From Novakomyces olei (taxonomy: Eukaryota): a stretch of 64,000 nt of DNA. The DNA is taken from assembly GCA_016906335.1 (NCBI GenBank), contig JADEYG010000004.1, positions 496,001 to 560,000 of the forward strand. Reading direction: 5' to 3'. The stretch's first letter is position 1. Each line of letters begins with the position of its first letter. The position numbers and the translations under genes are program-made. The notes beneath the pieces are model-generated. The model was given only the letters and a program-made list of their open reading frames with translations, searched no databases and had not been told where the DNA came from. Below, one piece after another: positions 41 through 10,993 of the stretch.

Positions 41-1232
41 ATGGACTTTTTAACGGCAGAGATCAATCGTAAACGTAAGGAGATCAAGGATCATAACGAT
101 AATGGCGCGGACGCCCCAGCAAGTAAATATCTTCGGCGAAAAGAGCTCGAAGAGGCTCGCGAACAGATTTATTTGCAAAAGCAGCGTGCGATAGACCGCG
201 AACGAGAGGTTGCGCGAGAACAAAAGTTACGAGAGAATCTGGAGAATGAAAAATTGCAGGCTCAACGCCGTAGGGATCGTGAACGTGAAGCTTGGGAAAG
301 AGTAAGTTACTTTGTAGAGCTCTTATTTCATCTTCCTGGCGTATTTCTTAGGGTTTATTTATCTTATCTCGGTGCTGATGAACAGGAAACTGCTCGTGAA
401 AATGAGGCAGTAAGCGAGGAGGAAGTGCATAAAAGGCTGCGAGCTGCCGGTGAACCGATAAGACTTTTTGGAGAAACTCTAAGGCAGCGTAAAGCGCGGC
501 TTACTGTGGTGGAAGAAGCCTTAGCTCGAGAGGAAGCGCGCAATAAGAAGGAAGCTGAGGCTGAAGCTGCTTTAGCGGCGAACGAAAATGGTTCTTTTGA
601 GATCGATATTCGACGGATCAATGACGCTTCTCCTCGAATTTACCTTCAAATTCGACTTTACATTGGGCATATTTTAAAAGAGTTTGCATCATATCTAGAA
701 TCACACCCAGAGCACGAGGATCTCGCTTCATCGTATGCAAATGCACAAAAGGATTTACAGTTTCTTTTTGAGCAGTTACGAGACTGCAATATGAAGCCCG
801 ACATCTTGAGGGCATTAGCGTCTATCGTTTATTATTGCCAGTGCCATGAATATATTAGGGCCAATGATGCTTATCTCAAACTCAGTATCGGTAATGCTGC
901 CTGGCCCATCGGACTTCAGGACGGAGGTATCCACGAGCGGACTGCACGTGATCGTATTAAAACTAAAAACGTTACGAATTTGCTTATCGACGAGGCCACT
1001 CGTAAGGTAGGTTGTTTTCCAAATTTGTCTATTGTTTTATTCATCCTTATCAATTGCTCTTGTCGTTTAATTTTATCTTGCAATGATATTCCGTCTAGTC
1101 CTTTTGTATTTATTTATTTATTTTTCTTTTTATACATGACTAAACGACCAGTGGCTGCAAAGCATTAAACGGTGTCTTACGTTTGCACAGTTAATATGGC
1201 CGCCCGATGATCCTAGTATGCGGATGGGATAG
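41..1232 (+). CDS. PRP18: Pre-mRNA splicing second-step factor Prp18 (introns 302-385, 1007-1151)
   Basis: PRP4-like motif (RLRAAGEPIRLFGE) and Prp18 core (ANDAYLKLSIGNAAWPIG..GIHER; spliced last exon WLQSIKRCLTFAQ, stop 1230-1232). Confidence 0.95.
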
Positions 1233-1511
1233 AATCTGTTTAAAGTTTGGTTTGGAATAGCGGTTTAGTAAATGGATAGGATTGATGTGCACGTTTACAT
1301 ACACGCGTTTAGGCGAATAGATCTCGCATGATAATGAGTAGAGAACCTTTTACGTGATCTACATACACAGTCTTGTATCCGTCACTTAAATCTCACAGAT
1401 GAATTCGTGTTAAATTAGCCATATGCTCTCTCCATCATACATATGAGGAAATGTAAAGCGCGTGCGCCTGGTAATCGGTAATGAGGTTTATGAATGTGCA
1501 TGCCGACAAGA

Positions 1512-1913
1512 TTACTTCTTCTCCTTGCTGGCGCCCTTGGTCTTTGCGGTTCCACGGACCTTCTTTTGACGGTTCTTGCGTTGCTTGCGCTGTTGACGGC
1601 TGGGCTTCTCCACACGCTTGTCCAGACCGGCGCGTACACGGCGGTAAAGGGGCTCAAACGTCTTGAACTCGTCAAGACTATCGTAAATCAAAGCAAAACC
1701 AGTCGTCTTTCCGCCACCGAAACTCGTTTGCAATCCGAAAACTTGAACTTGTGTAGCATCTGGTACACCGTACAATTGGGCCAGCTTTTCCCGTAGCGTA
1801 GATTTGGCAGGGGTAGGTGTGTTTGGGTGGAGCACATCGACCACCATCTGCTTGCGCGCAAGCAGACGGTTGGTCATAAACTTGCGCGTACGGAGCGTAA
1901 CTGCGTCGGCCAT
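1512..1913 (-). CDS. RPS24: 40S ribosomal protein eS24
   Basis: [26 protein letters not shown]...[14 protein letters not shown]; intronless. Confidence 0.98.
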
Positions 1914-2645: not shown

Positions 2646-3526
2646 ATGGCCGACTTGGACCCAGACCAAGTCGAGCAATTGCAAACCAAAGAATACTGGG
2701 TACCGCTTCTGTTCTTTCGTTATTCAAGTATACTCTTGCGCTTGTTTAGCGCAACACATGAACTTTTGGGACGCGAATGCCGACTGCTAATTTTTAGAAT
2801 TCTCGTTATTTAAAAGATGAAGATACTTTTGACTGGTTCAAGACTTGGCGGGAGCTTTTGCATTTTCTGAAAAATGCAATTGCTGACGGCGAGAGCAGCC
2901 TAATTTTAATGTTGGGCTGTGGCAATAGTGTAAGCGTCTCCCACGCCAAATATCTAATTTTTCAAGACGCTTTCGGGTGACATGTATTCTGCTGGGTACA
3001 CGCATATCACAAATGTCGATTTTAGCCAAGTTTGTATTGATCAAATGCAAAAGTTGAATAACGACAAGCCAAACATGTCGTGGCATTGTGCAGATGTCAG
3101 GAGCATGCAATTTGGAAACGACATCTTTGACGCGGCTATTGATAAGGCATGTAAATTATTTGCTTTTTTAAGTCTACAGAAGAAGATCAAATGACTAATC
3201 GCAGGGTACGCTCGATGCTTTTCTCAGCTACAAAGGCAGCGTATGGGAGTTGCCTCCAGAAGTGGAGACGGCAGCTTTACAGTACATGGACGAGGTAAGT
3301 TTAAACACAAGCGCTTTTTTGCCGAATTGACACGAAACTTTAGGTACATCGGGTGCTGAAACCAGGAGGCAGATTTATATACGTTTCCTACCGGCAGCCA
3401 CACTTTGCCAAACTTGCAATTGATCGGCCGTATTGGGACCTTTCTGTACATACATTGCAAGGTGGCAACGGAGGATTCGATTATTTTGGATATGTAATGG
3501 TGAAAAAGGCATCAACCCCTTCGTAG
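2646..3526 (+). CDS. EEF1AKMT4/METTL13-like class I SAM-dependent protein-lysine methyltransferase (4 introns)
   Basis: Spliced model: TKEYWNSRY..FDWF..ILMLGCGNSTLSGDMY..ITNVDFS..AAIDKGTLDA..EVHRVLKPGG; stop 3524-3526. Confidence 0.85.
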
Positions 3527-5070: not shown

Positions 5071-5515
5071 ATGAAGCATTTAGCTGCATACCTCCTGTTA
5101 ACTGTCGGCGGCAACACTGCCCCTACCGCAGACGACATCAAGAAAGTTCTCTCGTCTGTTGGAATTGACGCTGATGAGTCGCGTGTGTCTGAACTTATCA
5201 AGGACCTTGAGGGCAAAGACATCGCAACTGTAAGCTCTATATGCCCTTTAAACTTGTACTGCATTGTGTGTTTTAGCTAACGAATTAGTTGATCTCTGAG
5301 GGCGCAGAGAAACTGGCCACCGTGCCTGCTGGTGGTGCCGTTGCTGCATCTGCCGGTGGTGCCGCTGCTGCTGGCGGTGCCGCTGCTCCTGCCGAGGAGG
5401 CTAAAGAGGAGAAGAAGGAGGAAGCTGCCGAGGAATCGGACGAAGACGTAAGTTTTTCTTTCTTATAAATTTTATATCTAACCGTCTCTAGATGGGCTTT
5501 GGTCTCTTTGACTAA
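5071..5515 (+). CDS. RPP2: 60S acidic ribosomal protein P2 (2 introns)
   Basis: [10 protein letters not shown]..; Ala/Gly hinge; spliced C-terminus EESDEDMGFGLFD. Confidence 0.97.
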
Positions 5516-5941: not shown

Positions 5942-7198
5942 CTATTGCAGTCCATACTTTTTAAATTCATTGACCGCGCGCTCAAATCCAATATTGCCTC
6001 CGCTAATAATCACAACGACATTTCTCAAATCTGGTATTGCTCGAAACTTGTCATTGTACAGGACGACTGCCAATGTGACCGCTCCACTAGGCTCCGCGAT
6101 TATTCGCATATGAGTCCATATAAGATGCATGGCGCGAACTATCTGCTCCTCAGTCACAGTAAATACGCCATCGACAAGGGTAGAGAGAGCAGTAAAAGTC
6201 CTCGGCGTTAAAGAAGTACGCAAACCATCTGCTACTGTGTCTGGATTGACAACTGGCACCAAATGTCCTTGCTCAAAGGACCGATAGGCGTCATTTGCTC
6301 GCTCCGGTTCGCCGACAAAAACTTTTATTGAAGGGTGTAAGCTTTTAACGGCTACTGCAGTCCCCGTCATCTGTTGTTAGTCTGCTGTGCAATGTAAGAC
6401 CATCAGCATTTGCAAAAGAGAACGCTACTAACGAAACGATAAAATAAACATAAAACACCAGCACCGTACCAATCCACCTCCGCCAACAGGCGCTAGTACC
6501 GCATCCAGCTTATCTCTTGCGTCATTGTCTTGCGTCGTTTGTGAGTTTAACGTATCTAATCCAAACTCTTTTTCCTGCCGCTGCTCTTTCCATTGCTCCA
6601 TAGCTTCTAGCACGCAAGTCCCCTGACCCGCAATCACGTGCGGATCATCGTGAGCGTGTACATAGACGGCGCCCGTCTCGCGCTGAACGCGTCGGCTTTC
6701 CCGCTCACGTGCACTTTCATTCGGCTCGCATTGTAAAACACTTGCACCATAAAATTCCATTGCAGCAATTTTGTTGGCTGGAGTATTGCTTGGGGCAATG
6801 ACGCGTACAGGCATACCGAGCCGACCTGCCGCTAGCGCAAGCGCCTGCCCGTGGTTTCCCGACGAGGCAGTTACAACGCCAGCGGACCTATCTTCAGGTG
6901 CAATTAATGACACGGCATTTGTAGCGCCACGTGCCTTGAATGCTGGAAATTAATGTCATCCTTTATCTTGCATAATTATCGTGAATAAAATGATACCTCC
7001 AGCCTTTTGGAAGTTTTCGCATTTGAAAAAGATGCGACGGGGAAAAGTGCCACGGGACGCAAGTCCGTCTATCGTCAAACTTGTTAAAAGCGGCGTCGTG
7101 TGAGTAAGACCTTTAATGCGAGTACGCGCAGCCTCAATTGCTGAAAAGGGAACTTCTTGCTGCTCCAATTGGCGAAGGCCATCTTTGTATTGCGCCAT
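5942..7198 (-). CDS. SRY1: PLP-dependent serine racemase / Ser-Thr dehydratase family enzyme (2 introns)
   Basis: KCENFQKAGAFKARGA (PLP lysine), SSGNHGQA, PVGGGGL, EPSGAV, ISGGN. Confidence 0.88.

Positions 7199-10383: not shown

Positions 10384-10476
<93 letters not shown>
10384..10476. repeat. (TTA)n microsatellite, ~31 units
   Basis: Perfect TAT/TTA run just upstream of the SAP18 ATG. Confidence 0.98.
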
Positions 10477-10477
<1 letters not shown>

Positions 10478-10993
10478 ACAAATGAATGGAGAATGGTTAT
10501 TAAATATATACAGATTACTGACTAATTTGGACCTTCGCTTGAAATCACTCAATTAATCGCAGACCCGTTGAACTGACGAATAGTGCGCGCACATTGTACG
10601 CGCAATTCCGTGAAATTAAAGGAAGACTATGTAAAATATTTGGGCCCATTGAACGATATTAGAGGCCCAAGGGTGGGAAGAATATGGACACGTTTGTCTC
10701 CAAAAGAAAAACAGAGCGCACACTTCCAAAAAAAATAAACAACATTGTTTTGAAGGAGTGTAGAGAAGAGACAAGTATTTCCCTGCGCTCAAAAAAGCGT
10801 TGAGCGCAAACGGTTTCCCCTTTTAGAGTCTTGCAATTGATCAAGTGCAGGAAGAAAATACACAAAAGCCATTCGCCATCTAAGAATGAGAATCAACAAA
10901 ATAATAATAGTAATAATGAACAGGTGCACACGCAACAGGAGCAAAAGCCGCCCTTGAATCCAAAGTTAATGCGCGATTATTCACTCCACGCTT

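What the first reader, a model, noticed from the sequence alone, without database searches (positions are those of the whole stretch)
902..940. Prp18 conserved active-site loop is rewritten (WPIG-LQDG-GIH instead of WPIG-VT[M/S]V-GIH)
Seen: codons 914-925 encode LQDG between intact WPIG and GIHER flanks, with no length change. Known: this is the most conserved part of Prp18, it reaches the exon-ligation centre, and Prp18 supports fidelity of YAG 3' splice-site choice. Inference: a lineage-specific step-II spliceosome with relaxed selection at the -3 position, which would fit the AAG-rich acceptors in this window.
Basis: partly seen in the sequence, partly recalled or inferred. Interest (0 to 1): 0.72.

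Follow-up and report, generated by a model that had tools for sequence, protein, structure and literature searches.

The report
Rewritten Prp18 loop in short-intron yeast
This fungus has an unusually altered tip on a loop of the splicing protein Prp18 and many introns ending in AAG, but both more likely follow from its very compact intron ends than the loop causing the AAG use.

Summary
Observation confirmed: 914-925 encode LQDG in the genome's only Prp18, with intact flanks. No homolog matches it: Gly at position 4 in 0 of 151 rows, four changes in 1 of 149 loops. But these four residues are the most variable part of the loop, and a separate budding-yeast clade has VQDV, VRDV, VQNV. AAG-rich acceptors are real genome-wide: 57 of 259 predicted introns (22%), GAG 4; 11 of 14 Pfam-testable AAG junctions join exactly. 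A at -3 is as common as U once base composition is allowed for. The causal link is weak: the -3 readers (Prp8 Gln1594, U2AF1 Ser34) and Prp18's His/Arg contacts are kept, yeast lacking Prp18 gains GAG and non-AG sites rather than AAG, and wild-type yeast splices AAG well. 156 of 259 introns have the acceptor 9 nt or less from the branch point, where yeast needs Prp18/Slu7 least; Slu7 here lacks the segment holding its Prp18-binding element. Best reading: relaxed dependence on Prp18-Slu7 under a first-AG rule (0.5). No RNA data, no close relative, no AAG figure for relatives. The scan has not noted this loop on other DNA.

The parts
41..301 (+). Prp18 exon 1 (N-terminal charged region)
   Evidence: gene model; the 56% identical protein P0185 diverges at the same point
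302..385 (+). Prp18 intron 1, GTAAGT...CAG, branch-to-acceptor 7 nt (predicted; in frame, no stop)
386..1006 (+). Prp18 exon 2: PRP4-like motif, helices 1-4, conserved loop, start of helix 5
884..913 (+). conserved 5' flank of the loop (SIGNAAWPIG), unchanged
914..925 (+). rewritten loop core LQDG (usual VTMV; yeast V197-V200)
926..940 (+). [quoted passage not shown]
1007..1151 (+). Prp18 intron 2, GTAGGT...CAG, branch-to-acceptor 8 nt (predicted)
1152..1232 (+). Prp18 exon 3: rest of helix 5 and C-terminus with stop
2930..2966 (+). example of an AAG-ending 37-nt intron in the neighbouring methyltransferase gene
   Evidence: downstream exon matches Methyltransf_25, upstream exon had no Pfam match

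Best explanation
The gene is a working, single-copy Prp18 of a Taphrinomycotina-like yeast. Its introns put the acceptor almost always at the first AG 6-12 nt after the branch adenosine. [quoted passage not shown] Selection on the Prp18-Slu7 module has therefore eased: the four central loop residues drifted to LQDG and Slu7 lost the segment around its Prp18-binding element, while the loop's flanks and His/Arg contacts stay. Shown here: the loop, single copy, the Slu7 deletion, intact Prp8/U2AF1 contacts. Predicted from DNA: intron geometry and acceptor shares. Inferred: reduced dependence on Prp18, and the direction of cause.
For: Branch-to-acceptor distance mode 8 nt, 156 of 259 at 9 nt or less, 67 at 7 or less; only 5 of the 29 upstream AGs skipped in these 259 introns lie 6 nt or more from the branch point. 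In S. cerevisiae the natural minimum is 10 nt, Prp18/Slu7 are dispensable at short distance, and the authors suggest weaker need in D. hansenii (PMC10711555). Twelve budding-yeast rows form one clade (100/100) in which 0 of 12 keep Thr at loop position 2, apart from the window's protein; named members are Suhomyces VRDV, Priceomyces VQNV, Scheffersomyces VEHI, Hyphopichia VKSI, Millerozyma VKSV; constrained short branch-AG distances are reported for D. hansenii, C. lusitaniae and C. guilliermondii (PMC2483917; their kinship with the named species is recalled). Rozella Prp18 also has a broken loop (P0014). Slu7 lacks Pfam positions 45-73, about human 195-242 and yeast 200-219 with E215-I216-E217; the DNA is continuous there. 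Wild-type yeast splices synthetic AAG as well as YAG and uses AAG effectively in a reporter. Prp8 F1509, Q1522 (yeast Q1594), R1532 and U2AF1 H29, C33, S34, R35 are kept; GAG is 4 of 259 against 19% of NAG words in intron bodies.
Against: S. octosporus, Pneumocystis and Saitoella keep VTMV, although fission-yeast introns also have short branch-to-acceptor distances (recalled, not measured), so short spacing does not force loop decay. About 95% of eukaryotic introns end in YAG and natural AAG introns splice worse in yeast, so 22% AAG with no U-over-A preference is not explained by tolerance alone. AAG use does not rise at shorter distance (12 of 67 at 4-7 nt, 9 of 38 at 13 nt or more; p=0.5). 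The repeated Thr-to-Gln/Arg/Lys and Met-to-Asp/Asn changes in two lineages look more like selection than drift. Cactin, SDE2, FAM32A and Fyv6 are all present, so there is no general loss of step-II factors. Whether the Slu7 deletion is shared with relatives that keep VTMV is unknown. All intron data are predictions from 5.7% of the genome.
Confidence: 0.5

Rival explanations
1. Adaptive retuning of a ruler: the small, flexible LQDG-G tip lets the 3' splice site dock only 6-9 nt from the branch point, which a VTMV/VTSV loop hinders. The loop was selected for compact intron ends, independently here and in the budding-yeast clade with xQDx/xRDx loops; AAG follows from the geometry.
For: Prp18 loss in yeast activates acceptors 7-9 nt from the branch point, read as Prp18 imposing a minimum distance (PMC10711555); 60% of introns here are under that 10-nt minimum; same kind of substitution at positions 2-3 in an independent clade.
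Against: Taphrinomycotina with VTMV are recalled to have many short distances too; no structure read here shows these four residues setting the distance; the budding-yeast clade has many different loops (VRSV, VKSI, VLNV, LVGV), which looks like relaxation.
Confidence: 0.2
2. One reading: the rewritten loop loosens the channel around nucleotides -3/-4, so A is accepted like U, and AAG acceptors then accumulated.
For: The loop buttresses -3 and -4 in the yeast P complex (10.1101/212811); A equals U at -3 here; the two known direct -3 readers are unchanged, so the cause must lie elsewhere; further changes cluster in step II: Slu7 deletion and Prp8 alpha-finger I1529V, Ile in the four species shown.
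Against: Prp18 loss or loop deletion raises GAG, BG and HAU use more than AAG, yet GAG stays at 1.5% here; in the human structure Prp8 F1509, not Prp18, stacks on -4 and the factors touch the backbone through H289/R291, both kept; wild-type Prp18 already allows AAG.
Confidence: 0.15
3. The loop change has nothing to do with intron ends: it is one of several lineage-specific substitutions in a fairly fast-evolving protein, tolerated because these four side chains contact little.
For: 22 of 90 conserved columns deviate, including Phe for a 97%-conserved Trp in helix 1; end branch 1.27 against a median of 0.76; 77 of 149 loops are not VTMV.
Against: Overall conservation is ordinary (76% of conserved columns kept; 47 of 152 rows keep fewer; S. 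octosporus keeps 67% and still has VTMV), so three changes at 79-89% conserved neighbouring columns are concentrated.
Confidence: 0.12
4. Assembly error in this one genome.
For: Seen in one assembly only; no reads or close relative were obtained for the loop.
Against: At least 5 substitutions in 12 nt separate these codons from any VT[A/N/G]V coding (7 from VTMV), with no length change (read); flanks are clean; three of the four letters occur in natural homologs.
Confidence: 0.03

Closest known systems
S. cerevisiae Prp18 and its conserved-region loop S187-I211 (PDB 5mps, 1dvk; PMC10711555; 10.1101/212811)
   Same: Same domain (E 9e-20), loop length, WPIG and GIH-x-R flanks, short helix 1-2 link, Asn/Ile before DE in helix 5.
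   Different: VTSV becomes LQDG; keeps the N-terminal PRP4-like motif; R152 equivalent is Asp (a variable column, Asp in 14 of 151); host introns are mostly below yeast's 10-nt minimum.
Human PRPF18 in the FAM32A-SDE2-Prp18 docking network (bioRxiv 10.64898/2026.08.05.741260)
   Same: H289 and R291 equivalents kept; FAM32A, SDE2 and Cactin genes present.
   Different: VTMV core replaced; Slu7 lacks about 48 residues present in human Slu7.
Prp18 of Suhomyces, Priceomyces, Scheffersomyces, Hyphopichia, Millerozyma and kin (CUG-clade yeasts; clade name recalled)
   Same: Polar or charged residues at loop positions 2-3 (VRDV, VQNV, VEHI, VKSI, VKSV; unnamed VQDV, IRDV); short helix 1-2 link; short branch-AG spacing reported for related yeasts.
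   Different: Separate clade on the tree; position 4 stays aliphatic (Val/Ile) there, Gly here; their AAG share was not obtained.
Taphrinomycotina Prp18 (Pneumocystis oryctolagi, Saitoella complicata, Schizosaccharomyces octosporus)
   Same: Pneumocystis and Saitoella are the two best hits (41% and 39%), S. octosporus ranks eighth.
   Different: All three keep VTMV and the longer helix 1-2 link.
U2AF1 S34F/S34Y cancer mutants (PMC7505975)
   Same: They accept U, C or A and reject G at -3, the pattern seen in this genome.
   Different: U2AF1 here keeps Ser34 and the other listed contacts, so this is not the mechanism.

Membership tests
Prp18/PRPF18 | Pfam Prp18 domain over the curated cut-off | tested here: met
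   119.9 bits against 32.5
Prp18/PRPF18 | N-terminal PRP4-like motif of non-budding-yeast members | tested here: met
   36.9 bits against 25
Prp18/PRPF18 | Conserved loop flanks SIG-N-x-x-WPIG and GIH-x-R | tested here: met
Prp18/PRPF18 | Loop core V-T-x-V (usual, not invariant) | tested here: not met
   LQDG; columns are 87, 79, 52, 89% conserved in 151 homologs
Prp18/PRPF18 | Helix-5 D-E and K-R residues (yeast D223, E224, K234, R235) | tested here: met
   D289, E290, K300, R301 among kept columns; yeast residues
Prp18/PRPF18 | Five-helix fold | not tested
   no model built; sequence match to 1dvk covers helices 1-4 and the loop
Prp18/PRPF18 | Binding to Slu7 through the Slu7 EIE element | tested here: inconclusive
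   Slu7 lacks the aligned segment, but an E-R-I-E stretch just upstream could stand in; binding itself not testable here
Prp18-deficient, low-fidelity spliceosome (yeast prp18 deletion phenotype) | Raised use of GAG and non-AG acceptors | tested here: not met
   GAG 4 of 259; first-AG GAG in frame near chance (5 of 14, 3 of 8, 12 of 40). Non-AG acceptors were not modelled; minor isoforms need RNA
Prp18-deficient, low-fidelity spliceosome (yeast prp18 deletion phenotype) | Use of acceptors under 10 nt from the branch point | tested here: met
   156 of 259 predicted introns
Altered -3 reader (Prp8 Q1594A or U2AF1 S34F type) | Change at Prp8 Gln1594 or U2AF1 Ser34 | tested here: not met

The most novel reading that the evidence does not exclude
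This lineage has a co-evolved exon-ligation module (Prp18 LQDG tip, Slu7 without its Prp18-binding segment, Prp8 alpha-finger Ile-to-Val seven residues after the -3-reading Gln) that docks acceptors 6-9 nt from the branch point and treats A like U at -3 while still refusing G. The same solution would have arisen separately in CUG-clade yeasts and Rozella, making the Prp18 loop sequence a predictor of intron-end architecture across fungi.
Probability: 0.25. Interest if true: 0.7.

Novelty: new variant of a known kind. Interest (0 to 1): 0.42.

Why it matters
How the spliceosome picks the 3' splice site, and what the Prp18 loop adds, has been studied by deletions and alanine changes. A natural allele with the loop core rewritten, in a genome whose predicted acceptors are about one fifth AAG and mostly closer to the branch point than budding yeast allows, gives a four-residue swap that separates two proposed roles of the loop (minimum-distance ruler, sequence fidelity). 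If the swap does nothing, it shows the core residues are dispensable filler, and the finding is ordinary. Practically, gene finders that demand YAG will mis-call many introns in this genome.

Tried and rejected
RNA evidence: no RNA holder listed, so no reads were laid. Close relatives with the loop: none among shorter proteins (8 candidates, none scored) or metagenome contigs; P0185 covers exon 1 only. Fungal Slu7 for comparison: metagenome scan empty; the Atlas gave cluster names only. Complex prediction of Prp18 pieces with a Slu7 fragment: no verdict. The alignment-based search returned almost only Agaricomycetes (119 of 120 VTMV) and says little on diversity. Canonical paralog: none. U2AF1 S34-type change: absent. 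Loss of long-distance step-II factors: Cactin and SDE2 present; Hep_59/Tls1 gave no match, which the tool marks as uninformative. Compensated frameshift: another frame reads T-S-G across 914-925, but restoring V-T-S-V would need a 4-nt gain, a 4-nt loss and a substitution; rejected by reading. Micro-exon inside the loop: no length change against homologs; rejected. AAG share for S. pombe or D. hansenii: not found in ten searches; four paper look-ups were not held; PMC10581693, PMC4787815 and PMC5728500 had nothing usable. A first motif-enrichment scan for donors was too noisy.

Full report
1. Observation. Window 902-940 encodes WPIG-LQDG-GIHER, with LQDG at 914-925. The frame matches Pfam Prp18 (119.9 bits) and PRP4-like (36.9 bits) and aligns without a gap to S. 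cerevisiae V197-V200. Predicted exons 41-301, 386-1006 and 1152-1232 give 320 aa; both introns end in CAG. The window is G000:C4:496001-560000 in a 14.3-Mb, 15-contig assembly with one Prp18 locus. The best named hits are Pneumocystis and Saitoella, so I call the host Taphrinomycotina-like; the Prp18 tree leaves its exact place open. At least five substitutions in 12 bases separate the codons from any near-canonical loop, so an assembly error is unlikely, but no reads or second isolate were obtained.

2. How unusual is the loop? I used the best 150 of 1,194 hits among 50%-identity representatives; this set favours diversity. In the alignment of 151 rows (P0185 dropped as exon-1 only, two named rows added) the four columns are V 132, T 119, M 79, V 134, and the window's letters occur 8, 4, 5 and 0 times. 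Of 149 readable loops, 72 are VTMV and 38, 24, 14 and 1 differ at one to four places. In a set of mostly Agaricomycetes, 119 of 120 are VTMV. So LQDG is at the far end, and Gly at position 4 was not seen elsewhere, but the core is the variable part of the loop; the flanks are 97-100% fixed and intact here. Overall the protein keeps 68 of 90 conserved columns; 47 of 152 rows keep fewer. Similar cores exist: VQDV, VRDV, IRDV, VQNV, VQNI, VEHI, named in Suhomyces, Priceomyces, Scheffersomyces, Hyphopichia, Millerozyma, [Candida] anglica and [Candida] subhashii. With the core masked, 12 such rows form one clade (100/100), none with Thr at position 2, and the window's protein lies outside it beyond a 100/96 branch (42 hand-picked rows): the likeness is independent. 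Rozella has VMGP-INLNER.

3. Are acceptors AAG-rich? No RNA holder was listed, so I predicted introns. I took 77 sequences, 824,000 bases (5.7% of G000; eleven loci left out as overlaps, short search loci or pieces of small contigs) and trained a gene model that gives no weight to the -3 base. Of 529 predicted introns, 259 with coding support on both sides end in CAG 109, TAG 89, AAG 57 (22%, 95% interval 17-27) and GAG 4. Stricter cuts gave 14-18% AAG. False introns would bring GAG along (19% of NAG words in intron bodies against 31% AAG), so at most about 7 of the 57 can be noise. A model-free test asked whether the first AG after a branch point restores the frame (chance 1 in 3). Over six settings AAG did so in 2/3, 11/14, 24/40, 19/25, 31/57, 53/102; GAG in 0/1, 2/4, 5/14, 3/8, 11/24, 12/40; CAG in 11/12 to 79/130. 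The strictest setting gave only 2 AAG of 24 in-frame sites (8%), the others 16-25%. Of 48 AAG introns with long flanks, 14 had the same Pfam family on both sides; 11 join the profile exactly, 2 within one position, 1 is off by 9. Against the branch-to-acceptor spacer, A:T at -3 is unchanged (odds ratio 1.04, p=0.85), C is enriched 2.8-fold and G depleted tenfold. A cited baseline is about 95% YAG in eukaryotes (PMC8496845, passages). The window (14 of 50 predicted; 6 of 23 confident) is like the rest (p=0.6).

4. Intron geometry. The branch-adenosine-to-G distance has mode 8; 156 of 259 are 9 nt or less and 85% are 12 or less, although my starting prior peaked at 13. Of 29 upstream AGs skipped, 24 lie under 6 nt from the branch point. 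AAG share does not depend on distance (p=0.5). In the same measure S. cerevisiae's natural minimum is 10 nt; sites at 7-9 nt appear when Prp18 is lost; Prp18 and Slu7 are dispensable at short distance; and the authors suggest that D. hansenii, with 7-8 nt, may need Prp18 less (PMC10711555, passages and section 19). PMC2483917 (passages) reports constrained short distances in D. hansenii and two Candida species; its D. hansenii figure converts to 9-11 nt in my measure, so the two papers do not agree exactly.

5. Partners. Prp8 is one intronless frame; its alpha-finger keeps the equivalents of human F1509, Q1522 (yeast Q1594) and R1532, with one change, I1529V, where S. pombe, Chlamydomonas, C. 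elegans and human have Ile (species of two entries recalled from PDB codes). U2AF1 keeps F20, C27, R28, H29, C33, S34, R35 and the second-finger contacts (PMC7505975 passages and section 7). U5 loop 1 and U6 ACAGAGA are canonical. FAM32A, Fyv6, Cactin and SDE2 are present. Slu7 is the exception: Pfam positions 45-73 are missing between two adjacent matches, corresponding to about human 195-242 and yeast 200-219, which hold the Prp18-binding E215-I216-E217. The DNA shows no intron. An E-R-I-E stretch just upstream might stand in, and I could not fetch other fungal Slu7 to see whether the deletion is shared.

6. Mechanism. Structures place the loop against nucleotides -3/-4, but the -3 base is read by Prp8 Gln1594 (10.1101/212811, passages). 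In the human structure Prp18 H289 and R291 touch the backbone and FAM32A, and Prp8 F1509, not Prp18, stacks on -4 (10.64898/2026.08.05.741260, passages and section 7; its supplement was closed). Prp18 loss raises GAG, BG and HAU sites most, with AAG efficiency roughly unchanged; Prp8 Q1594A raises AAG and GAG, and wild type already uses AAG in a reporter (PMC12707134, passages); synthetic AAG introns splice like YAG, though natural ones do worse. A weakened Prp18 would thus be expected to let G in, which this genome does not show. Against my reading: three Taphrinomycotina keep VTMV; equal use of A and U at -3 with both readers intact is not fully explained; and the changes that do exist cluster in step II.

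7. Novelty. The family and the loop's roles are known (also PMC5873924 and PMC8022279, passages). Ten searches showed no paper linking natural variation of this loop to acceptor use, and none gave an AAG share for fission yeast; the library lacks most subscription papers. The scan's own notes hold no look-alike of this protein. Earlier unchecked notes report AT-AC and AT-AA introns in this genome and AAG-rich ruler introns in Rozella; I treat them as leads only.

8. Verdict. Real, single-copy and extreme variant of a known loop in a genome with predicted compact, AAG-tolerant intron ends; the causal claim is unproven and less likely than a shared cause. New variant of a known kind; interest 0.42; 0.7 if the co-evolved module is real (probability 0.25).

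Noticed in passing
L006 5081-6271 (-), G000:C4 about 586.1-587.3 kb: Slu7 lacks about 29 Pfam positions (45-73), the acidic segment that aligns with the Prp18-binding EIE element of yeast; not known whether relatives share the deletion.
   Followed up: partly
L005 388-7779 (+), alpha-finger near 5302-5391: Prp8 has Val for the Ile seven residues after the -3-reading Gln (human I1529); Ile in the four species shown.
   Followed up: partly
L027 about 1503-1601 (+): U6 snRNA is intronless and reads AAACAGAGAA, without the U before ACAGAGA that METTL16 is recalled to need; donor +4 is A 0.49, T 0.26, C 0.17. METTL16 was not searched.
   Followed up: no
window 386-1006: Prp18 also has Phe for a 97%-conserved Trp in helix 1 and a 7-residue deletion in the helix 1-2 link, as in budding yeasts.
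   Followed up: no
protein P0185: An unnamed 103-aa protein is 56% identical to Prp18 exon 1 and diverges at the same intron position: a related species exists in public data; its loop was not found.
   Followed up: partly
824-kb sample of G000: Position -4 is a purine in 142 of 258 introns (55%) against 43% in the spacer, and in 38 of 57 AAG acceptors; a -4 purine lowers dependence on exon-ligation factors in the human preprint.
   Followed up: no
L006 about 6316-6760; window about 10384-10478: Long ATT/TAA-type trinucleotide runs (over 400 nt near the 5' side of Slu7).
   Followed up: no
L008 7123-7626 (-): A predicted AAG intron falls in an integrase zinc-binding domain of a retrotransposon-like stretch; may be a false intron at a frameshift.
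   Followed up: no
G000 whole: No match for Hep_59 (Tls1/C9orf78); the tool marks this as uninformative.
   Followed up: no
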